Shown piece after piece: positions 1,807 to 49,086 of a stretch of 64,000 nt of DNA; positions within the stretch are counted from its first letter, which is position 1, and the number at the start of each line of letters is the position of its first letter. The position numbers and the translations under genes are program-made. Origin of the DNA: Escherichia virus TH15; sequence record MT446392.1; one strand, given 5' to 3'. The notes beneath the pieces are model-generated. The model ran no database searches and was not told where the DNA came from. It saw nothing but the letters and a program-made list of their open reading frames with translations.

Positions 1807-4062
1807 ATGCAAGTACAAAAAAGTAGTGGTGTCTCTCAAGATTTTGATGGCCAGAAAATTATTAAAGTTCTTTCCTGGTCATGTGAAGGAACTAATATCG
1901 ACCCGTATGAATTATACGAAACAATCAAACCACATCTGCGCGATGGTATGACTACCCGCGATATTCAGACGGTTATCATCAAAGTGTCTGCTGGGCTTAT
2001 TTCGGTCGAAGAACCGGATTATCAATATGTTGCAGCGAAGGCTACGATGTTTGCTCTGCGTAAAGATGTTTATGGGCAATTCGAGCCACGTTCTTTTATT
2101 GACCAGATTTCTTATTGTGTTAATGAAGGCAAATATGACCCGGAACTGTTGTCAAGCTACTCCGCCGAAGAGATTACTTATCTGGAATCTCGTATCAAGC
2201 ACGAACGCGATTTTGACCTGACTTATGCAGGCGCGATGCAGTTGAAAGAGAAATACCTGGTTAAAGATAAAACCACTGGTAAAATCTACGAGACTCCACA
2301 ATTCGCTATCATGGCTATCGGCATGGCACTGTACCAGGATGAACCAACGGACCGTCTGAAGCACATTTGCCGTTTTTATGATGCAGTATCCACAAGACAG
2401 GTTTCGTTGCCCACACCTATCATGGCGGGCGCCAGAACACCCACCAGGCAGTTCAGTTCCTGCGTGGTTATCGAAGCTGCAGACTCCCTGAAGTCAATCA
2501 ATAAGACTGCCAATTCAATCATCGAATATATCAGTAAGCGTGCGGGTATCGGCATCAACGTTGGTATGATTCGTGCTGAAGGTTCGAAAATCGGTATGGG
2601 TGAAGTTCGTCATACTGGTGTTATTCCGTTCTGGAAACATTTCCAAACGGCTGTTAAATCCTGTTCACAAGGTGGAATCCGTGGCGGCGCTGCTACTGCT
2701 TATTATCCTTTATGGCATTTGGAAGTTGAAAATTTACTCGTTCTGAAGAACAACAAGGGCGTTGAAGAAAACCGCATCAGACATATGGACTATGGTGTCC
2801 AGTTGAATAACATGATGATGGAACGTCTGGCTAAGAATGATTACATCACTCTGTTTAGTCCACATGAAGCTGGTGGTGAATTGTATTATTCATATTTTGA
2901 TAACCCGGATAAATTCCGCGAGTTATATGAAGCCTTAGAAAAAGACCCGACAGTTCGTAAGAAACGTATCAAAGCAAAAGACCTGTTCGAATTATTCATG
3001 ACCGAACGTTCCGGCACTGCCCGAGTTTATCCACAGTTCGTTGATAACGTGAATGACTATACTCCGTTCATCCGCGATAAGGCTCCGATTCGTCAATCAA
3101 ACCTTTGTTGTGAAATTGCAATCCCGACTACTGATGTAAACAGCGAAGATGCTGAAATCGGATTGTGCACATTGTCTGCATTTGTTCTGGATAGTTTTGA
3201 CTGGCAGGACCAAGATAAGATTAACGAGCTGGCTGAAGTTCAAGTTCGTGCTCTTGATAATCTGTTGGACTACCAAGGTTATCCGGTTAAAGAAGCTCTG
3301 AAAGCCAAAAAACGTCGCAACTTGGGCGTTGGTGTTACCAACTACGCTGCATGGCTGGCAAGCAATTTCGCTTCCTACGCCGATGCAAACGATTTAACCC
3401 ATGAATTATTTGAGAGATTACAATATGGCCTTATCCGAGCATCCATCAAGCTCGCCAAAGAAAAAGGACCTTGCGAATATTATTCAGACACTCGTTGGGC
3501 TCGAGGCGAATTACCTATCGACTGGTACAATAAAAAGATTGACCAAATCGCAGCTCCAAACTACGTTTGTGACTGGGCGCAGCTGCGGGAAGACCTGGTT
3601 GCACATGGCATCCGTAATAGCACCTTATCTGCGCTCATGCCTTGCGAGTCGAGCAGCCAAGTTTCAAATAGTACCAACGGTATCGAACCTCCGCGTGGTC
3701 CAGTAAGTATTAAGGAAAGTAAAGAAGGTTCCTTTAACCAGGTTGTTCCAAATATCGAGCATAATAAAGGATTGTACGATTACGCATGGGTACTGGCTAA
3801 ACAAGGTAATAAACCTTATCTGACTCAAGTCGCGATTATGTTGAAATGGATTTGTCAGTCAGCATCAGCAAACACTTATTATGACCCGCAGAATTATCCG
3901 AAAGGAAAAGTTCCGATGTCAGTTATGCTTGACGACTTGATGTACGGTTGGTATTATGGAATCAAGAATTTTTACTATCACAATACTCGTGATGGCTCGG
4001 GAACTGACGATTACGAATTGGAAATGCCAAAAGCTGATGATTGCTCGGCATGTAAACTGTAA
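1807..4062 (+). CDS. nrdA: ribonucleotide reductase large subunit
   Basis: 751-aa ORF (T4 NrdA is about 754 aa); RBS GAGGAAAA; position after td. Confidence 0.93.
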   Translation: MQVQKSSGVSQDFDGQKIIKVLSWSCEGTNIDPYELYETIKPHLRDGMTTRDIQTVIIKVSAGLISVEEPDYQYVAAKATMFALRKDVYGQFEPRSFIDQISYCVNEGKYDPELLSSYSAEEITYLESRIKHERDFDLTYAGAMQLKEKYLVKDKTTGKIYETPQFAIMAIGMALYQDEPTDRLKHICRFYDAVSTRQVSLPTPIMAGARTPTRQFSSCVVIEAADSLKSINKTANSIIEYISKRAGIGINVGMIRAEGSKIGMGEVRHTGVIPFWKHFQTAVKSCSQGGIRGGAATAYYPLWHLEVENLLVLKNNKGVEENRIRHMDYGVQLNNMMMERLAKNDYITLFSPHEAGGELYYSYFDNPDKFRELYEALEKDPTVRKKRIKAKDLFELFMTERSGTARVYPQFVDNVNDYTPFIRDKAPIRQSNLCCEIAIPTTDVNSEDAEIGLCTLSAFVLDSFDWQDQDKINELAEVQVRALDNLLDYQGYPVKEALKAKKRRNLGVGVTNYAAWLASNFASYADANDLTHELFERLQYGLIRASIKLAKEKGPCEYYSDTRWARGELPIDWYNKKIDQIAAPNYVCDWAQLREDLVAHGIRNSTLSALMPCESSSQVSNSTNGIEPPRGPVSIKESKEGSFNQVVPNIEHNKGLYDYAWVLAKQGNKPYLTQVAIMLKWICQSASANTYYDPQNYPKGKVPMSVMLDDLMYGWYYGIKNFYYHNTRDGSGTDDYELEMPKADDCSACKL

Positions 4063-6402: not shown

Positions 6403-7535
6403 TTGAATTATATGATAACTTAATGAAGCTTTGCGCTGAATCCGATAAAGGTAAGTTTTTCTATACGGATTTTGTTTCTCCATTTGAAACTAAGTTCCGC
6501 ATCTTTAGCTATAACTATGCTTCCTATAGCGATTGGCTCCTTGATGATGCATTAGAGTGCCGCGGCATTATGTTTGAAATGGATGCAGATGGCCCAGTTC
6601 GTATTGCAGCTCGTCCTATGGAAAAGTTCTTTAACTTGGGCGAAAATCCGTTGACCATGGATATCAATATGGATGAAGTTGCGCTGGTCATGACCAAGGC
6701 TGATGGCTCTCTTGTCTCCACTTATATGGACCAGACCAACATTGCCTTTAAATCAAAGGGGTCAATCAAAAGCTCCCAGGCAGCAGAAGCACTACAGGTA
6801 TTCAAACAAGAACACCGTATAGCTTTCCGTGAGCGCGTAACTGAAATTACTGAAGCTGGTTATACATGCAATATGGAATATGTTGCACCAACCAACCGCA
6901 TTGTTTTGCCTTACCAGGAACGTGACCTGATTTTACTGAACGTTCGCCATAATGAAACTGGTGAATATATCCCTTATCAGGATTTGTTTAAAGATGCCGC
7001 GCTTCGCCCATTCCTGGTTGAAGCATATGACCCGGCTACAATTGAAAACGTCCGTGATATGAAAGAGATTGAAGGCTTTGTCTATGAGCTGGCTGACGGT
7101 CGCAAATTTAAAGTTAAGACAGAATGGTATTGTGCTTTACACCATACCAAGGATTCTGTTAACAATAACCAGCGTCTTTTTGAAGTTGTTGTTGCAGGCG
7201 GTGCAGATGATGTTATTGCCATGTTTACTGGCGATGATTATGCTCGTGAAAAAGTTAATGCCTTTACCATTGCACATCTGGATTATCTGTCCAATACCCT
7301 GGGACTGTTGCTTGATGCCCAGAAACAGTTGGCGGGAAAAGACCGACGCGAGTTTGCGATTAAAGGTCAAGAGTTGTGTAAACCATATCCGGGTTTGTTC
7401 TCCGTATTAATGAACACCTATCAACGTCCCCAGGAAACAGAGCAAACCATCGCTCAAATCAATAATGTTTTCCTTAAAAATCATAAACTTTACATCCCGG
7501 TGGACTACCAAGCGGATGTAATCCTGCCTGAATAA
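6399..7535 (+). CDS. rnlA: RNA ligase 1
   Basis: 378-aa ORF; nucleotidyltransferase KxDG motif (MTKADGSL); T4 gp63 is 374 aa. Confidence 0.9.
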   Translation: MIELYDNLMKLCAESDKGKFFYTDFVSPFETKFRIFSYNYASYSDWLLDDALECRGIMFEMDADGPVRIAARPMEKFFNLGENPLTMDINMDEVALVMTKADGSLVSTYMDQTNIAFKSKGSIKSSQAAEALQVFKQEHRIAFRERVTEITEAGYTCNMEYVAPTNRIVLPYQERDLILLNVRHNETGEYIPYQDLFKDAALRPFLVEAYDPATIENVRDMKEIEGFVYELADGRKFKVKTEWYCALHHTKDSVNNNQRLFEVVVAGGADDVIAMFTGDDYAREKVNAFTIAHLDYLSNTLGLLLDAQKQLAGKDRREFAIKGQELCKPYPGLFSVLMNTYQRPQETEQTIAQINNVFLKNHKLYIPVDYQADVILPE

Positions 7536-8984: not shown

Positions 8985-9148
8985 TAGAGACCTGTAGCCT
9001 TGGTTGGGATATTGTTAGATTTGGTGCATTCTGTTTTTGTTTTGGGATTGCGGCCACTTTATGTGTTCAAGGTCTTTTTGGAAAGTAGTGTACAAACTCA
9101 TGGGAGCAGAGTATAATGCTCCTACGGATAATAATTGAGGAAATAATT

Positions 9149-29253: not shown

Positions 29254-29278
29254 TGCTTTAATTTTATGGCTGTATAAT
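29252..29278 (+). promoter_or_regulatory. MotA-type middle promoter for uvsY
   Basis: aaTGCTTTA 29252-29260, 12-nt spacer, TATAAT 29273-29278, then GGTTCTAGACCC cassette. Confidence 0.55.
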
Positions 29279-40318: not shown

Positions 40319-40978
40319 ATGCATTATTTAATTTACAAAATAACTAACTTGATAAATCATAAAATTTATATTGGGGCGCACGCCACAGAAAACGTGTATG
40401 ACTCCTATATGGGGTCGGGAGTCAACATTGTCAAATCCATCAAAAAACATGGTATTAAGAACTTTAAAAAAGAAATTTTGTTTGTTTTTGATACTTCATA
40501 TGAAATGTATGAGAAAGAAGCTGAACTTGTTAATGAACAATTTGTGCTTAGAGCTGATACATACAATGCAGCTATTGGCGGCAAGGGAAATCCAATTATT
40601 GTTAAACTACAAGACCCTTCATACAGAAAAATGATTTCAGAAAAGACAAAAGCAGGTATGACCGTAGAAGTAAAGCGGAAAATATCAATAGCAAAAACAG
40701 GAGTCAAACAGTCACAAGAGCTTATTGATAAACGTACGGCGGGTGTCAAAAAATATTTAGAAACACACCAGCATCACAACAAAAATAAACCAATAAGCGA
40801 TAGCCACCGCAAAGCAATTTCAGAAAAATTAAAAGGGATTAAAAAACTTATTAAGATTTCAATCAAAGGTAAGACTTTTGATAACCCAGATTTTGCTGCT
40901 GAACATTTTGGCGTTTCTCCAAAAACAATACGCAATTGGATAAATTCAGATAAACACCCAGACTGCTTCAAACAATAA
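40319..40978 (+). CDS. segD: GIY-YIG homing endonuclease, SegD-like
   Basis: 219-aa ORF; [25 protein letters not shown] motif, repeated K..G...S.E linker modules, C-terminal HTH-like; between genes 23 and 24 like T4 segD. Confidence 0.78.
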
Positions 40979-44515: not shown

Positions 44516-44778
44516 TATTCGTCGTCCTCATCGTCTTCATCATCGTCGTCGCCTTCATCGGCATCGTCAGAATCTTTTTTATCTTTCTTCTCGTCCTTGG
44601 TATCTTTATCGTCTTCATCATCTTCTTTAGGCTCTTCGCCTTCAATCATGATGGAACGTGCAATTTCAATCTTACGTTCTTGAATCAAACTACCGCATAC
44701 TGGGCCAATGTTTTCAGCAAAATATTTGCGAACGGCTACGAGGTCGTTTGATTTAATGGCTTCAAATAAATCATCCAT
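44515..44778 (-). CDS. 67: prohead core protein
   Basis: 87-aa ORF with poly-acidic C-terminus (T4 gp67 80 aa). Confidence 0.8.
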
Positions 44779-46352
44779 TAGAAATCCTCTTCTTCTTCTT
44801 CAGGGTTTTGGAAACGAGCCTCTTTGGACTCCAACTCAATTTGCTTAGCTTCTTGGTTGATTTCTTCATCAGACATTTGGAGGAAATCCTTCATTGCAGT
44901 TTGATGCGAAATATATTTACCGATAAACGGTTCAGCCATTGTTAGCATATTGATTCTGCGTTCCATGATTTCTGCGTCTTTCATTTCGGTGAAATAGCTA
45001 TCACGGTTGAACGTAACTTTAATATTATTTAGTTCCTTGTCCCACTCATCCTCTGTGATAACTTTCTTAAGGATAAGGTTTGTTTTCAATGGGTCAAGGA
45101 AAACTTCTTCAAATTTATTCTGGAGCTGACGAATCCACTTAGCAAAATTCAACTCATCACGAGTAATTGTTGCCCCGGCATCAAACATAACACCACTGTT
45201 TTGGTCGTTAGGGATACGAGATAATGGAATTCTCAAGGCTTGATATAGGTTGTTCTTAAACCAGCGAACATCGTCCATATCCGACATACCTTGCGCACCT
45301 GGCAATGTATCAACTTCGGTGACTGCTTTACCATCACGACGTTGTAACCAATAGTCTTCTGTCATAGACATGTTATGTTGTTGGTTTTTGATTTTACCTG
45401 TGGTTGCATCATATACGACACGGTTTTTCATCGTGTTCATAATATGTTGCATGTGTGCTGCTGCCTTACGAGACGGCATGTTTCCTGTGTCGATATAAAA
45501 TACACGACGGTCTGGAGCACGAGTAATACGGTAGATAACTAATGCATCTTCTAATAGTTTTAATTGGTTTGCAGGTTTGATTGCTCGTTGCAGGTATCCG
45601 ATGATATTCTTACCGCAACGATCAAGTAATCCGGAATGCGCATATACAATTGCCGCACGAGGAATTTTTATTTTTGTACCTGCTTCATATATACGACCAT
45701 CGGCACAATAACTTTCATGACCTGTATCGTATACAAAATATTCTCTGTAACCGTCAACAATTTTCGTACCATTTTCCATGCGTGTAACGATTTCACGGAT
45801 GAACTGGATTTGTCTTGGGTCAAGGCGACGAAGTTCTTGAACGCCTTCTTTAATTTTTGAAGGGTTGATAATTTTGTGGAAGAAAATTCGAGAATCCACA
45901 TACCAACGTTTAAAATGGTCAGAGCCTTTACGTTCGAAATTAAGGAGGTTATTCACTTCCAAAAATTCTTCAAGGATTCTATCTTTAATATTCTGACTAA
46001 ATTCAGTAGCATCAAGGTTAAGAGCTACAACATCTTTACCGTCTTCAAATACGATGGCATCAGACACAATCTCTTGAACCGCGTTATCAACTTCATAATT
46101 ATTTAGTAGGTTGCGGTATGTGTCAATTAATTCCCTGGTGTTTTTTACTTCCGGTTCGTTGCTCCCGAACATCTGTTGCATCAATGCATTATACGGGACG
46201 TTTTGTTCTTGTGACTCAATTTCGCGAGCCCCATCATCAAACTTCGGCCCGGTCATTGACTCTAAATTATTTTTTTCTTGTTGCTTATATTCTTGTTCAT
46301 CTTCTTTAGCCCAAGGCTTAAGAAAATTTAGTATTGTATTAAAACCTGCCAT
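44778..46352 (-). CDS. 20: portal vertex protein
   Basis: 524-aa ORF, same length as T4 gp20. Confidence 0.92.
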
Positions 46353-46409
46353 TAGAGTCTCCGAAGTTTGGGAAATGAGGCCGAAGCCTCATAATAACTT
46401 TATTTATAC

Positions 46410-46901
46410 TTATTCCCACCAGTCAATTGCAAACGTAGTTTCGAATGTCTCAATCTCATTATTCGAATCCCAATCCATCTGAACTTCCCCAACGTTAGTT
46501 GGCCACATGCCGGTGATAACAACTTCTTTAGTAACGGTCTTGCCATCACGATGGAACTGGCGAACAGTAGCGGTTTTCTTATAATCAGCAGGAGCTGCAC
46601 CGGTAATTTCGTTGGTCATACCGTGACACATATTTTGCCAATCAACAATTGCTTGACGAACTTTATGAGCATCGTCGTTATAAATCGTAATAGTCCAGTC
46701 ATCAAATGTACGGTCTCCCGCAACGTTGATTTTACGGTTCATGTAACCAACTGGTACTTTTTCTACAATGCCTGCTGGCATCGGGGCTGCTTTACAATGG
46801 AAAGCAAAGTTTTTACCCAGGAATGGGATTTCGACTTCGAACAGGTTAGGGCGAGCAAAGTCACCGGATTCGAAAGCGCGTGTGATATCGGTCAACTCCA
46901 T
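46410..46901 (-). CDS. 19: tail tube protein
   Basis: 163 aa from ATG at 46901 with GAGGA RBS (same length as T4 gp19); track start 46952 lies beyond the late promoter. Confidence 0.85.
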   Translation of the reverse strand: MELTDITRAFESGDFARPNLFEVEIPFLGKNFAFHCKAAPMPAGIVEKVPVGYMNRKINVAGDRTFDDWTITIYNDDAHKVRQAIVDWQNMCHGMTNEITGAAPADYKKTATVRQFHRDGKTVTKEVVITGMWPTNVGEVQMDWDSNNEIETFETTFAIDWWE

Positions 46902-47019
46902 TAAGGAATCCTCTTTATAGACACAGGTCGCGCGTACGCGTCCCTGATGCATGTATTTATACTAGGTAATATGATTCATCATCTCAAGATAATGGCTTCC
47001 CAGAATCAACCACAGGAGC

Positions 47020-47070
47020 CCGTAGAACCGATTATGCTTTTATTTATAACACTGTATAATGGTTCTACGG
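47020..47070 (+). promoter_or_regulatory. promoter-like cassette flanked by 10-bp perfect inverted repeat
   Basis: CCGTAGAACC (47020-47029) ... atGCTTTt ... TATAAT (47055-47060) ... GGTTCTACGG (47061-47070); TATAAATA on - strand at 47041-47048. Confidence 0.4.
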
Positions 47071-47106
47071 TTTTACTGCTAATTAATTCTTTCTAAGCGA
47101 TGATAA

Positions 47107-49086
47107 TTATTGTGGCCCAATCAGCTCATCAAAATCAGCACCAGTGCTTGTGGCTACGAAATTAAGCGTGATGTAGTTGATGCTGCGCGCAGGTTTAAAA
47201 TAAATGCTAGCAACAAACTCATTTCGGTCTATGACCGACGGGGTGTTGTTAGTAGTATCACAAACCACACGACCTTCATAAATGCCACCAAGCGCGCGAA
47301 TACCATCCAAGTATTGAGAAGTTTCCATACGGAATGATGCACGAGTGAAGTTATCGTTAAGCTCAAACAGTTTATATTTGGATGCGTCACCGATATTTTT
47401 CTTCAGCATATTCGTAAGACGGCGAACGTTAATATGGTCCATCGGAGATGGAACTTTAGTTGCAGTCTTATCACCATACAGAACAAAACCATCACCACCT
47501 GCGAAACCAACAACCGGGTTGATAGCTTCTTGATACATGCGGTCACGCTGGGTCTGACGAGGTTCAACAGCCAATTTCAGAACGTTCAAAATCTGACCAC
47601 GGTTATAACCAGCCGGAGACATCCAAGGCTGAGAAACATCATCAGTACGAGCACACAGACCAGCCATATCAGCTGCCAGAGGAACCCAACGGTTAACGTC
47701 GTTATATTTATCATACTGATATTTATAGTTGCCATCAATCGCTGCATAAGTCGTGCTGATATTCATGTTATCAGTATCGAATGTACCACCGCCTGTACGC
47801 CAGTCAATCAGGTTATCCACTGCACGGGTCAGAGGAACATTAACCAACAGCCCTTTCGGAGGAGAAATGAATGCCAGACAATCCTGACGTTCGTCAGCAA
47901 TAGAAACTACGTGCTTCTGAACAGTGGAAGCAGTTGCATCACCTTCACCAGCTACTGCACCAGCAATAAGCAGGTTAATATGCAGAGCTTCACGGTCAGC
48001 GAACAGGTCCCAACCTTGCATCAAATCACCAGCAGTAATCTTATCGTTTGCAGAAATACCACCCGACAGATTGATAATACCGCTGAAGCCTACAGGCCAG
48101 TTACGAGATGTTGCATAGATGTAGTTGGAAGTACCTTTTGCAAAGTAGTCATCCAGGTAAATATTATTACCGTAAACATCTTTTTCGCCCTGCTTAGTAG
48201 ATAGAACAACGTTTTCGACGATTGCACCATCACGGCGAACGATAATTGCATATTGGTTTTCGGACTGGGGTCCATAGTTAAACAATGCACGAGCTACAGA
48301 AGCACGCGTACCACCACCAGGGAAAATATCCAGATTTGTAGTTGCACCTTTTTCGAATTCAGCTTTAGATACGATTTCAACTTCCAGAGTCGAACCAATT
48401 TCACCAGGATAAAGAGCAACAACACCTGGCATTGCATATTTGGCTAAAGATGCCTGGAATTCCAGAGAAGTAATTACTTCTTCACTGTTTTCTGCTTCGG
48501 TCAACAGAATACCTGAATCGGTAACAATTTTACCTACAGTGATTGTACCGGATACACCAGAAGAAGTGGTCGTAACTTCTGCAGTCCACGCACTACCCAA
48601 ATTAGGATACTGATTAATAGTTTTAGCAAATGCAATAATCTTATTGGTAGGAATAAAGATTGCCAGAATTTTACCATCAACATCAACCTTGGTCACACGG
48701 CCAGCTGGTTCAACGACCGTCTGGTTATGCTTAACCTGGATAACATCACCAACGGCATAGTTTGTACCCGCAGTAACGATGGTAGTTTCAATATTGCCGG
48801 CAACAGGGGATGCGTTTTTAGCTTCGTCGCGGTTAACAACACGTACAGTACGAAGGTCGTTACCATATTGCAGGAAGTTCATCCCACTCATAAAGTAATC
48901 TGCTGTTTCATTATTCGGACCACCAAACAAATCAACAAGTTCAACTTCGTTTGTAATCTGAGTTACCTGGAAAGCTGGGCCCCACTGGAATTTACCAACC
49001 AGCGCCGCACGACCCGTCGCGTTACGAACAACAGTGCTTTGGACCGTTGTTTCTTTGAGCTCAATGCCCGGGGATAATAAAGCCAT
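47107..49086 (-). CDS. 18: tail sheath protein
   Basis: 659-aa ORF, same length as T4 gp18; N-terminus ALLSPGIELKETTVQSTVV matches as recalled. Confidence 0.93.
   Translation of the reverse strand: MALLSPGIELKETTVQSTVVRNATGRAALVGKFQWGPAFQVTQITNEVELVDLFGGPNNETADYFMSGMNFLQYGNDLRTVRVVNRDEAKNASPVAGNIETTIVTAGTNYAVGDVIQVKHNQTVVEPAGRVTKVDVDGKILAIFIPTNKIIAFAKTINQYPNLGSAWTAEVTTTSSGVSGTITVGKIVTDSGILLTEAENSEEVITSLEFQASLAKYAMPGVVALYPGEIGSTLEVEIVSKAEFEKGATTNLDIFPGGGTRASVARALFNYGPQSENQYAIIVRRDGAIVENVVLSTKQGEKDVYGNNIYLDDYFAKGTSNYIYATSRNWPVGFSGIINLSGGISANDKITAGDLMQGWDLFADREALHINLLIAGAVAGEGDATASTVQKHVVSIADERQDCLAFISPPKGLLVNVPLTRAVDNLIDWRTGGGTFDTDNMNISTTYAAIDGNYKYQYDKYNDVNRWVPLAADMAGLCARTDDVSQPWMSPAGYNRGQILNVLKLAVEPRQTQRDRMYQEAINPVVGFAGGDGFVLYGDKTATKVPSPMDHINVRRLTNMLKKNIGDASKYKLFELNDNFTRASFRMETSQYLDGIRALGGIYEGRVVCDTTNNTPSVIDRNEFVASIYFKPARSINYITLNFVATSTGADFDELIGPQ

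What the first reader, a model, noticed from the sequence alone, without database searches (positions are those of the whole stretch)
47020..47070. Antisense-oriented promoter cassette enclosed by a 10-bp perfect inverted repeat between genes 18 and 19
CCGTAGAACC (47020-47029) and GGTTCTACGG (47061-47070) are exact reverse complements. They bracket a GCTTTT box, a + strand TATAAT and a - strand TATAAATA. The + strand promoter points into the antisense strand of gene 19, where no + strand gene follows. This could drive an antisense RNA over a late structural gene, be a regulatory hairpin for the gene 19 late promoter, or be the scar of a lost module.
Basis: seen in the sequence. Interest (0 to 1): 0.5.

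Follow-up and report, generated by a model that had tools for sequence, protein, structure and literature searches.

The report
Back-to-back promoter cassette inside a hairpin
Between the tail-sheath and tail-tube genes of this T4-like phage sits a strongly conserved 51-bp hairpin holding two overlapping promoters that face opposite ways; one resembles the promoter that primes DNA replication at a known T4 origin, which makes it a testable candidate origin or antisense regulator but not a new kind of element.

Summary
A perfect 10-bp inverted repeat is not by itself beyond chance in 64 kb. But it extends to a 17-bp stem, folds far better than shuffles, and is invariant in 15 related Gaprivervirus genomes whose flanking intergenic DNA varies or is replaced.

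The + strand has a textbook T4-type MotA-dependent middle promoter: TTATGCTTTT, a 13-bp spacer, then TATAAT. Its -10 region is 14/14 identical to this phage's own uvsY and rnlB promoters and close to T4's oriG promoter P34i. A late promoter (TATAAATA, - strand) lies inside its spacer.

The + strand promoter fires into the antisense of gene 18 (tail sheath), not gene 19. No ORF follows it.

It is not a scar. HNH homing-endonuclease genes ("19.1") insert on either side of it in relatives, and the cassette persists.

My best reading is a nested divergent promoter pair. The non-coding anti-late transcript most likely primes replication as at T4 oriG. Antisense control of gene 18 is the close rival. 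The repeat supplies the stem-loop that nearly all T4-like phages carry after gene 18. All function is inferred from sequence. I rate it a new variant of known kinds, of moderate interest.

The parts
47020..47029 (.). Left arm of the inverted repeat (CCGTAGAACC)
   Evidence: Exact complement of 47061-47070. Invariant in 15 relatives. Removed by an 11-nt deletion in VR26.
47061..47070 (.). Right arm of the inverted repeat (GGTTCTACGG). It is also the discriminator and start region of the + strand promoter.
   Evidence: GGTTCTA directly follows TATAAT in the uvsY and rnlB promoters of the same phage as well.
47020..47070 (.). Whole hairpin-forming cassette: 10 bp, bulged G47030, then 7 bp, with a 16-nt loop at 47038-47053
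   Evidence: Fold -22.7 kcal/mol (+ RNA) and -18.2 (- RNA), z -5.3 and -4.5. The hairpin is kept in every sequence variant. Only 4 of 53 columns vary.
47032..47041 (+). MotA box TTATGCTTTT, 9 of 10 matches to (a/t)(a/t)(a/t)TGCTTtA
   Evidence: Consensus and 12 +/- 1 bp spacing rule from PMC2988021. Observed spacing to the -10 is 13 bp. Invariant in 15 relatives and in VR26.
47055..47060 (+). Sigma-70 type -10 hexamer TATAAT of the anti-late middle promoter. The inferred start is near 47067.
   Evidence: GTATAATGGTTCTA (47054-47067) is identical to the sites at 29272 and 36531, which precede uvsY and rnlB. All 7 matches with up to 2 mismatches are on the + strand, against 0.52 expected.
47041..47048 (-). 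Distal late promoter TATAAATA, lying in the spacer of the middle promoter and in the hairpin loop
   Evidence: Invariant, while the neighbouring positions 47049, 47052 and 47053 vary. - strand TATAAATA occurs 16 times against 3 on the + strand.
46954..46961 (-). Proximal late promoter TATAAATA of gene 19, 53 nt upstream of the ATG
   Evidence: Invariant in relatives. T4 also has two TATAAATA in its 18-19 spacer.
47071..47106 (+). A+T-rich tract just downstream of the + strand promoter. It is a candidate DNA unwinding element and also the 3' untranslated tail of gene 18.
   Evidence: 47070-47109 is 75% A+T, the 96th percentile of 40-bp windows. The sequence varies among relatives, 20 of 36 columns.
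47107..49086 (-). Gene 18 (tail sheath, 659 aa), the gene opposed by the + strand transcript
46410..46901 (-). Gene 19 (tail tube, 163 aa), downstream of both late promoters

Best explanation
The window comes from a Gaprivervirus, a T4-type coliphage of the VR7/VR20/SP18 group. The 51-bp element is a conserved, compact pair of overlapping promoters that face opposite ways, wrapped in a hairpin-forming inverted repeat.

Shown by sequence and comparison:
1. The + strand (the early/middle direction) carries a MotA/AsiA-type middle promoter: MotA box, 13-bp spacer, TATAAT. It belongs to the same promoter family as this phage's gene 30, uvsY and rnlB promoters.
2. A late promoter TATAAATA on the - strand sits inside that promoter's spacer and points towards gene 19.
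3. The + strand promoter has no gene to serve. It fires into the antisense of tail-sheath gene 18.

Inferred:
- About 3-10 min after infection, MotA/AsiA-modified RNA polymerase starts near 47067 and makes a non-coding anti-late RNA.
- By analogy with T4 oriG (ori34), the RNA forms an R-loop in the A+T-rich tract at 47071-47106 and primes leading-strand replication into the late-gene block. T4 oriG is a MotA-dependent promoter inside late gene 34 whose primer RNA runs opposite to that gene.
- After the switch to late transcription the promoter falls silent.
- The inverted repeat then acts in the late-sense RNA. It serves as the stem-loop that almost all T4-like phages place right after gene 18, for 3'-end protection or attenuation.
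- The two TATAAATA elements drive gene 19.

Likelihoods: the + strand promoter is active, about 0.7-0.75. Its RNA primes replication, about 0.35 overall.
For: Promoter class:
- TGCTT-N13-15-TATAAT occurs 4 times on the + strand and 0 times on the - strand, against 0.19 expected.
- The other three sites lie directly upstream of DNA ligase gene 30, uvsY and rnlB.
- The T4 counterparts P30, PuvsY and PrnlB are mapped MotA-dependent middle promoters (PMC2988021 Table 1).
- The 14-mer GTATAATGGTTCTA is exact at the uvsY, rnlB and cassette sites.
- T4 P34i, the oriG promoter, reads TTTGCTTCAagaatattaagTGTATAATGGTCCCA.
- The T4 record annotates oriG with 'primer RNA is opposite direction of adjacent gene 34'.

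The transcription factors are present in the lineage:
- VR7 encodes asiA and motA.
- Gaprivervirus P8 has a MotA homologue.
- VR7 keeps an oriG-promoter homologue inside gene 34.

Selection:
- Only 4 of 53 cassette columns vary, against 46 of 94 in the flanks.
- The variable positions (47049, 47052, 47053) fall between the promoter elements.
- The promoter core survives in VR26 in a different context.

Origin architecture:
- R-loop formation there does not depend on a specific sequence.
- Most early T4 DNA synthesis starts in late-gene regions (PMC3016281).
- The tract downstream of the cassette is 75% A+T.

Hairpin acts in late RNA:
- A hairpin right after gene 18, followed by a late promoter, is the rule across 79 T4-like loci.
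- VR26 has a separate GC hairpin after gene 18 and has lost the left arm.
- The Marfavirus hairpin at the same position is annotated as a terminator.
- In Dhakavirus locus L036 the only arm substitution keeps a U-G pair in late-sense RNA only.
Against: - There are no transcript or replication data for this phage group, so all function is inferred from sequence.
- T4 itself has no anti-late promoter between genes 18 and 19.
- The A+T-rich tract is short (about 36 bp) and no richer than many intergenic spacers.
- There is no GC-skew inflection at 47 kb. That is uninformative, because skew here follows gene orientation.
- The 14-mer shared with PuvsY is also shared with PrnlB, which is not an origin in T4. 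It therefore marks a strong middle promoter, not an origin.
- The arms never vary within Gaprivervirus, so there is no covariation proof of pairing.
- The + strand RNA hairpin is slightly more stable than the late-sense one.
Confidence: 0.35

Rival explanations
1. Same active + strand middle promoter, but its RNA works as an antisense regulator or by transcriptional interference. It pairs with, or collides with, leaky transcripts of gene 18 before the late period and keeps them silent. In VR7-type genomes it would do the same to the HNH endonuclease gene 19.1a that lies immediately downstream on that strand. This need not exclude the origin role.
For: - All the promoter evidence given for the best explanation applies.
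- In VR7, RZ, DCP80 and Dhakavirus L031 the first thing the + strand transcript crosses is the antisense of the HNH gene.
- The review of T4 mobile elements notes that promoters placed opposite to surrounding genes create antisense transcripts (PMC2988022).
Against: - There is no evidence that gene 18 needs early silencing. Late genes already depend on gp55/gp33/gp45.
- HNH-less genomes keep the cassette unchanged.
- In VR26 and L032 the HNH gene lies on the other side of the cassette and would not be covered.
- The only characterised orphan anti-late MotA promoter in T4 is an origin.
Confidence: 0.25
2. Only the late-strand functions are real. The repeat is simply this lineage's version of the stem-loop after gene 18, with a late promoter in its loop. 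The + strand promoter look-alike is silent or irrelevant, perhaps a copied promoter fragment that persists because it overlaps constrained late-strand signals.
For: - A hairpin plus TATAAATA after gene 18 is nearly universal.
- Tegunavirus (phiR1-RT, TG1, fHe-Yen9-01) also has TATAAATA embedded in a 10-bp perfect hairpin at this position.
- T4 manages without an anti-late promoter here.
Against: - A late promoter needs only 8 bp and a stem needs only complementarity. Neither explains invariance of the MotA box, of TATAAT and of the TG before it. Neither explains the 14/14 identity to two bona fide promoters on the same strand.
- In VR26 the stem is lost but the whole 30-bp promoter core is kept at 29 of 30 positions.
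Confidence: 0.15
3. The cassette is a protein-binding site linked to the homing endonucleases that use this junction. It could be a recognition or cleavage site, or an operator, for the 19.1 HNH enzymes. The two arms, 41 bp apart centre to centre (about four helical turns), would bind a dimer.
For: - The 18/19 junction is an insertion hot spot for two HNH gene families in at least four lineages.
- Genomes carrying HNH genes differ from empty ones inside or next to the cassette. VR7-type has a GA insertion and two loop substitutions. VR26 has arm loss.
- I-TevI binds an operator overlapping its own late promoter (PMC2988022).
Against: - The arms are identical in HNH-containing VR7-type genomes and HNH-free genomes. 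A cleavage site is normally altered in the immune, endonuclease-carrying allele.
- The insertion points lie about 20 nt or more outside the repeat.
- This does not explain the promoter-family match.
Confidence: 0.08
4. The cassette is a relic or agent of modular shuffling. It would be a promoter-plus-stem-loop cassette of the PeSL kind, left when a + strand gene module was exchanged or lost, with no present function of its own.
For: - The architecture of a promoter wrapped by a stem-loop resembles PeSLs (PMC2839356).
- The junction is mosaic. The left flank is replaced in VR7-type genomes and HNH genes come and go.
Against: - It is single-copy in every genome searched.
- It has no -35 element and no downstream ribosome-binding site or ORF.
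- No relative among 79 T4-like loci carries a + strand gene at this junction. All inserts are in late orientation.
- Strong purifying selection argues against a relic.
Confidence: 0.07

Closest known systems
T4 replication origin oriG / ori(34), with its MotA-dependent promoter P34i
   Same: - It is a MotA-type middle promoter on the anti-late strand that fires into the antisense of a late structural gene.
- No ORF follows it.
- The -10 regions are nearly identical: TGTATAATGGTCCCA in T4 and TGTATAATGGTTCTA here.
- An A+T-rich stretch lies downstream (PMC3016281).
   Different: - oriG lies inside the coding sequence of gene 34. This element is intergenic.
- This element is enclosed by an inverted repeat and shares its spacer with a late promoter.
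- The Gaprivervirus lineage already has an oriG homologue in gene 34, so this would be an additional site.
- Origin activity is untested.
T4 oriF / ori(uvsY), promoter PuvsY
   Same: It is a middle-mode promoter plus a downstream unwinding element. This phage's own uvsY promoter shares 14/14 bases around the -10 with the cassette.
   Different: PuvsY also expresses a gene (uvsY). The cassette promoter has none.
PeSL (promoter-early stem-loop) cassettes of RB49 and phi1
   Same: They are small intergenic cassettes that combine a promoter with a stem-loop, which may overlap or surround the promoter elements. They are associated with variable gene content (PMC2839356).
   Different: - PeSLs are sigma-70 early promoters with -35 and UP elements. 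They occur in about 50 copies per genome and lie in hyperplastic early regions.
- Each is followed by a ribosome-binding site and an ORFan, and their stems are often G/C tracts.
- This element is single-copy and MotA-type. It lies in the core late module and has no ORF.
Hairpin plus late-promoter module after gene 18 in T4-like phages
   Same: It occupies the same position and has the same order of elements: gene 18 stop, then a stem-loop, then TATAAATA, then gene 19. T4 has two hairpins and two TATAAATA. Tegunavirus has TATAAATA inside the hairpin.
   Different: Here the stem is long and A+T-rich in its upper part, and it encloses a complete promoter on the opposite strand. Dhakavirus and Marfavirus show a similar anti-late TATAAT in the loop of unrelated repeats.
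Late-promoter-in-hairpin translational control (T4 e, soc, I-TevI, segB, mobE)
   Same: A late promoter lies inside a hairpin, so late transcripts lack the 5' arm while read-through transcripts contain the whole stem (PMC2988022).
   Different: In those cases the 3' arm hides the ribosome-binding site. Here the 3' arm is 119 nt from the gene 19 ATG and covers no start signal.

Membership tests
T4-type MotA/AsiA-dependent middle promoter | MotA box (a/t)(a/t)(a/t)TGCTTtA centred near -30 | tested here: met
   TTATGCTTTT at 47032-47041, 9 of 10 matches. Consensus taken from PMC2988021.
T4-type MotA/AsiA-dependent middle promoter | [quoted passage not shown] | tested here: met
   A 13-bp spacer, then TATAAT (6 of 6) at 47055-47060.
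T4-type MotA/AsiA-dependent middle promoter | The phage encodes MotA and AsiA | tested here: met
   The genes lie outside the window. The close relative VR7 has asiA and motA, and Gaprivervirus P8 has a MotA homologue (33% identity, E 3e-23).
T4-type MotA/AsiA-dependent middle promoter | MotA-dependent transcript start in infected cells | not testable with these tools
   Needs primer extension or differential RNA-seq.
T4 oriF/oriG-type R-loop replication origin | A middle-mode promoter is part of the minimal origin | tested here: met
   See the promoter rows above. The -10 region resembles T4 P34i.
T4 oriF/oriG-type R-loop replication origin | [quoted passage not shown] | tested here: inconclusive
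   47070-47109 is 75% A+T, the 96th percentile. It is only about 36 bp long before gene 18 begins and is typical of spacers.
T4 oriF/oriG-type R-loop replication origin | Persistent R-loop, autonomous plasmid replication after infection, early nascent-DNA peak | not testable with these tools
   These are experimental criteria (PMC3016281).
PeSL regulatory cassette | Sigma-70-like early promoter with -35 and -10 boxes and an A+T-rich upstream region | tested here: not met
   No -35 match at 16-18 bp. The consensus scan did not call a + strand promoter here. A MotA box takes its place.
PeSL regulatory cassette | Stem-loop adjacent to or overlapping the promoter | tested here: met
   A 17-bp stem encloses the promoter.
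PeSL regulatory cassette | Many related copies per genome, each followed by a ribosome-binding site and an ORF | tested here: not met
   One copy in the window and one place per relative genome. No conserved + strand ORF.
Intrinsic (Rho-independent) terminator | G+C-rich stem with a short loop, followed by a U tract | tested here: not met
   The loop is 16 nt. On the + strand the run is UUUU in only 4 of 15 genomes and UUU in the rest. The late strand has no U tract. The scan does not call the cassette hairpin as a terminator; its only nearby call is a separate 6-bp stem at 47025-47010 on the - strand that overlaps the left arm.
T4 late promoter | TATAAATA on the strand of, and upstream of, a late gene | tested here: met
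   47048->47041 and 46961->46954, both invariant. Activity was not tested.
Hairpin/late-promoter translational switch (e, soc, I-TevI type) | [quoted passage not shown] | tested here: not met
   The 3' arm (47029->47020 on the - strand) lies 119 nt upstream of the gene 19 ATG, with no start signal in or next to it.
Invertible promoter switch (inverted repeats flanking a promoter) | Both orientations of the enclosed segment occur among genomes or reads | tested here: not met
   All 15 aligned relatives, VR26 and Dhakavirus carry the same orientation. A 31-bp insert between 10-bp arms is far shorter than known invertible segments; that size comparison rests on my own knowledge.

The most novel reading that the evidence does not exclude
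The cassette is a previously unrecognised R-loop replication origin of the Gaprivervirus and Dhakavirus lineages. It would be a second oriG-type origin, planted between the two most abundant tail genes. Its firing would also make the 18/19 junction a recombination hot spot, which would explain why two families of HNH homing-endonuclease genes and mosaic flanks accumulate exactly there. The overlapping late promoter and hairpin would then couple origin shut-off to late transcription.
Probability: 0.2. Interest if true: 0.6.

Novelty: new variant of a known kind. Interest (0 to 1): 0.4.

Why it matters
T4 has long been known to start replication from R-loops at MotA-dependent promoters. Only two such origins (oriF and oriG) are defined at sequence level, and the rules that make a middle promoter an origin remain an open question, listed in PMC3016281.

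A conserved orphan anti-late middle promoter, in a lineage that also keeps oriF- and oriG-type promoters, is a clean natural test case. It is about 110 bp long, easy to clone, has an A+T-rich tail, and comes with natural variants: VR26 lacks the stem and VR7 has an altered loop.

It also shows how tightly three signals can be packed into 51 bp: a middle promoter, a late promoter on the other strand, and an RNA stem-loop.

It flags the 18/19 junction as a homing-endonuclease hot spot.

If the promoter proves silent, the finding reduces to an ordinary hairpin after gene 18 with a late promoter.

Tried and rejected
1. Small + strand protein gene.
- The 49-aa ORF at 46947-47096 is annotated as a hypothetical protein in UPEC07.
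- It is broken by stop codons in UPEC01 and VR25 and frameshifted in VR7-type genomes.
- The short ORF from ATG 47034 shows only first-position and non-synonymous variation, with invariant third positions. The constraint is therefore on the DNA, not on a protein.

2. Known RNA family. The Rfam scan of 46300-47800 gave only sub-threshold chance hits.

3. Dispersed repeat.
- The 30-bp core occurs once in the window.
- There is one place per relative genome.
- IMG/VR returned only VR20, VR25 and VR26.
- The metagenome scan found nothing.

4. Other arm-pattern hits.
- A hit in L105 lies inside a coding region of an unrelated contig and is chance.
- Five 17-mer hits (L106-L110) are about as many as I would expect by chance. 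I did not open them.

5. Canonical terminator. The scan does not call the cassette hairpin as a terminator, and the T tract is not conserved.

6. Ribosome-binding-site-sequestering switch. The distance is far too large.

7. Invertible switch. Only one orientation is seen in any genome.

8. GC-skew signature of an origin. None was found, but this is uninformative because all genes here share one strand.

9. Scar of a lost + strand module. All eight long 18-19 spacers among 79 T4-like loci were checked. Seven carry HNH genes in the late orientation. One (L093) is a duplicated tube-like gene.

10. Literature. I found no paper on promoters of VR7/JS98-type phages or on 'anti-late RNA' in the searchable library. 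The library lacks most subscription journals.

Full report
Identity of the region. The window matches Gaprivervirus genomes, which are T4-type coliphages. The best hit is UPEC01 at 99.3%, followed by VR20, VR25, SP18 and others at 94-97%. The late structural genes lie on the - strand:
- gene 20 (portal), 44778-46352
- gene 19 (tail tube, 163 aa), 46410-46901
- gene 18 (tail sheath, 659 aa), 47107-49086
- then genes 17, 16, 15 and onward to gene 7, all on the - strand to the end of the window

The finding lies in the 205-nt spacer between genes 18 and 19.

Observation. A perfect 10-bp inverted repeat with a loop of up to 60 nt is not remarkable in itself: shuffles give 4.8 +/- 3.0 hits, and the window has 8 hits at 5 sites. 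The repeat continues, however. After one bulged G (47030), 47031-47037 pairs with 47054-47060, giving a 17-bp stem and a 16-nt loop. Folding energy is -22.7 kcal/mol (+ RNA) and -18.2 (- RNA), with z-scores from -4.5 to -6.0 depending on the strand and fragment folded, and no shuffle does as well.

One statement is wrong. A + strand promoter with its -10 at 47055-47060 reads towards higher coordinates. That is the antisense of gene 18, not of gene 19.

Conservation. I aligned the spacer from 15 Gapriverviruses.
- Both arms are invariant.
- Only 4 of 53 cassette columns vary: two loop positions and a 2-nt insertion in the VR7 type.
- In the flanking intergenic DNA 46 of 94 columns vary, and the left flank is replaced wholesale in the VR7 type.
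- The variable positions (47049, 47052, and 47053 in VR26) fall exactly between the promoter elements described below.
- All sequence variants still fold into the hairpin.
- There is no covariation, because the arms never change.

The + strand promoter. TTATGCTTTT (47032-47041) matches the T4 MotA box (a/t)(a/t)(a/t)TGCTTtA at 9 of 10 positions. It lies 13 bp from a perfect TATAAT, and the rule is 12 +/- 1 bp (PMC2988021). In the window:
- TGCTT-N13-15-TATAAT occurs four times, all on the + strand. Shuffles give 0.19, and none of 200 reaches 4.
- The other three sites lie directly upstream of DNA ligase gene 30, uvsY and RNA ligase 2 (rnlB).
- The T4 counterparts P30, PuvsY and PrnlB are mapped MotA-dependent middle promoters.
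- GTATAATGGTTCTA is identical at the uvsY, rnlB and cassette sites. All seven matches with up to 2 mismatches are on the + strand, against 0.52 expected.

The right arm of the repeat is therefore part of a promoter-family motif. The left arm is its added complement. Relatives encode the required factors: VR7 has asiA and motA, and P8 has a MotA homologue. There is no -35 element, so this is a middle promoter, not an early one.

The - strand promoters. TATAAATA, the only sequence a T4 late promoter needs, lies at 47048->47041. That is inside the spacer of the middle promoter and inside the hairpin loop. A second copy lies at 46961->46954, 53 nt before the gene 19 ATG. Both are invariant. - strand TATAAATA outnumber + strand ones 16 to 3 in the window. 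T4 also has two TATAAATA in its 18-19 spacer, each preceded by a small hairpin.

What follows the + strand promoter. Nothing coding follows it.
- The 49-aa ORF that some annotators call is broken or frameshifted in UPEC01, VR25 and the VR7 type.
- The short ORF from 47034 shows DNA-level constraint, not protein-level constraint.
- The transcript would cross a 36-bp A+T-rich tract (75% A+T) and then run antisense through gene 18 and at least 17 kb of late genes.

The neighbourhood in relatives.
- VR7, RZ, DK-13, TH57 and DCP80 carry an extra 201-216-aa gene, '19.1', between gene 18 and the cassette.
- VR26 carries a different 227-aa '19.1' between the cassette and gene 19.
- Both proteins belong to phrog_5104. 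By eye, both carry an HNH-like motif (QLDHKVSI...N...W..N) in the translations. No HNH family matched in Pfam.
- The same two families sit at the same two positions in Dhakavirus. Related genes are inserted at this junction in other T4-like lineages, always in the late orientation.

The junction is thus a hot spot for apparent homing-endonuclease genes, and the cassette persists whichever side is occupied. It is not a scar.

VR26 is a useful natural variant. An 11-nt deletion (AGGAGCC|CGTAGAACCGA|TTATGC) removes the left arm, while the 30-bp promoter core is kept at 29 of 30 positions. VR26 also has a separate GC-rich hairpin right after gene 18. This suggests two things. The promoter core is the primary unit. 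The stem supplies a function after gene 18 that another hairpin can replace.

Wider comparison. I compared 79 T4-like loci fetched with gp19.
- The rule is: gene 18 stop, then a stem-loop, then a late promoter, then gene 19.
- Tegunavirus (phiR1-RT, TG1, fHe-Yen9-01) has TATAAATA inside a 10-bp perfect hairpin.
- Dhakavirus has CCCAGGC/GCCTGGG arms around 69 nt that include TGgTATAATGG on the anti-late strand.
- Marfavirus (Klebsiella phage F48 group) has ACCTGAAG/CTTCAGGT arms around an anti-late TATAAT preceded by TGCTAAA at 13 bp. That hairpin is annotated as a terminator.

So an anti-late -10 in the loop of the hairpin after gene 18 recurs with unrelated arm sequences in three genera. It is absent from T4. 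In Dhakavirus L036 the only arm substitution keeps a U-G pair in the late-sense RNA but would be a C-A mismatch in the anti-late sense. This is a single weak hint that the stem works in late RNA.

Mechanism. The one characterised precedent for an orphan MotA-dependent promoter pointing against a late gene is T4 oriG (ori34).
- The T4 record states that its primer RNA runs opposite to gene 34.
- Its promoter, TTTGCTTCA-N11-TGTATAATGGTCCCA, closely resembles the cassette.
- Minimal oriF and oriG consist of a middle-mode promoter plus an A+T-rich unwinding element.
- The transcript forms a persistent R-loop that primes leading-strand synthesis, and the unwinding element can be replaced by heterologous ones.
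- Most early T4 synthesis starts in late-gene regions (PMC3016281).
- VR7 retains an oriG-promoter homologue inside gene 34, and the window retains the uvsY promoter. The lineage uses this kind of element.

I therefore favour an oriG-like priming role for the anti-late RNA, at about 0.35. Antisense or interference control of gene 18 (and of 19.1a where present) is the close rival, at about 0.25. The two are not exclusive. The chance that the + strand promoter is active at all I put at 0.7-0.75. The stem most plausibly acts in late-sense RNA as the 3' stem-loop of gene 18. It is not a canonical terminator on either strand, and it cannot sequester the gene 19 ribosome-binding site, which is 119 nt away.

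Comparison with known kinds. The cassette meets every sequence-level criterion of a T4 middle promoter and of a late promoter. It has the architecture of oriG, but origin activity is untested. It resembles a PeSL in wrapping a promoter in a stem-loop (PMC2839356) but fails membership: it is single-copy, has no -35, has no downstream ORF, and lies in the core late module. Nothing in Rfam matches. I rate it a new variant of known kinds: two overlapping promoters of different temporal classes and opposite direction, packed inside one conserved hairpin. It is of moderate interest, mainly as a clean and easily tested candidate for a third sequence-defined T4-type R-loop origin.

Noticed in passing
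Relatives L001/L002 (RZ, VR7) 1898-2503 / 2898-3503; L003 (VR26) 2706-3389; L004 (DCP80) 1727-2377; also L026, L031, L032, L045, L053, L056: Two families of apparent HNH endonuclease genes ('19.1', phrog_5104) insert at two fixed points in the 18-19 spacer. One point is just after gene 18 and the other just before gene 19. They occur in Gaprivervirus, Dhakavirus and other T4-like lineages, always in the late orientation. The window is the empty-site allele.
   Followed up: partly
window 47014-47020 (+ strand AGGAGCC): AGGAG(C/T)C immediately left of the cassette is kept in all 15 relatives, in the VR7 type whose flank is otherwise replaced, and in VR26, where it abuts the promoter core after the 11-nt deletion. 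No explanation was found. It is too far from ATG 47034 to serve it in most genomes.
   Followed up: partly
window 46947-47096 (+): A 49-aa ORF spans the cassette and is annotated as a hypothetical protein in UPEC07, with hypothetical proteins also listed at this spot in P8 and pEC-M719-6WT.2. It is broken by stops or frameshifts in UPEC01, VR25 and VR7-type genomes, so it is probably a spurious gene call.
   Followed up: yes
L111 (VR7) about 6943-6970, - strand, inside gene 34: TTTGCTTCAAGAATATTCAGCGTATAATGG is a homologue of the T4 oriG promoter P34i. It sits at the equivalent position of gene 34, antisense to it.
   Followed up: partly
window 40319-40978 (+): A GIY-YIG (SegE-like) endonuclease ORF lies on the anti-late strand among head genes, like segD of T4.
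   Followed up: no
window 46931-46940: A perfect 10-bp palindrome CGCGTACGCG lies in the gene 19 leader, between the proximal late promoter and the ribosome-binding site. Most relatives have CGCGAACGCG, a change at the centre.
   Followed up: no
window 46377-46408: The 19-20 spacer has the reverse order of elements on the - strand. TATAAATA (46408->46401) comes directly after the gene 19 stop, then a GC hairpin GAGGCTTCGGCCTC (46390->46377), then gene 20.
   Followed up: no
window 9100-9124 (+): Another + strand promoter-like site has its -10 in the loop of a short inverted repeat (GGAGCA gagTATAAT GCTCC). This is a PeSL-like arrangement in the early region.
   Followed up: no
L002 (VR7) 3520-3560: The 19.1a gene of VR7 is preceded by its own hairpin, GCGCGTAT...ATACGCGC, with TATAAATA overlapping the loop and 3' arm. 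The Dhakavirus copy (L031) has the same stem without TATAAATA.
   Followed up: no
window 47434-48204 (+): A 256-aa ORF lies antisense inside gene 18, downstream of the + strand promoter. Its conservation and coding potential were not examined. It is probably a by-product of gene 18 codon usage.
   Followed up: no
L093 (IMG/VR contig 3300007508_000137): In a distant T4-like contig the long '18-19 spacer' contains a second tube-like ORF (173 aa) rather than an endonuclease.
   Followed up: no
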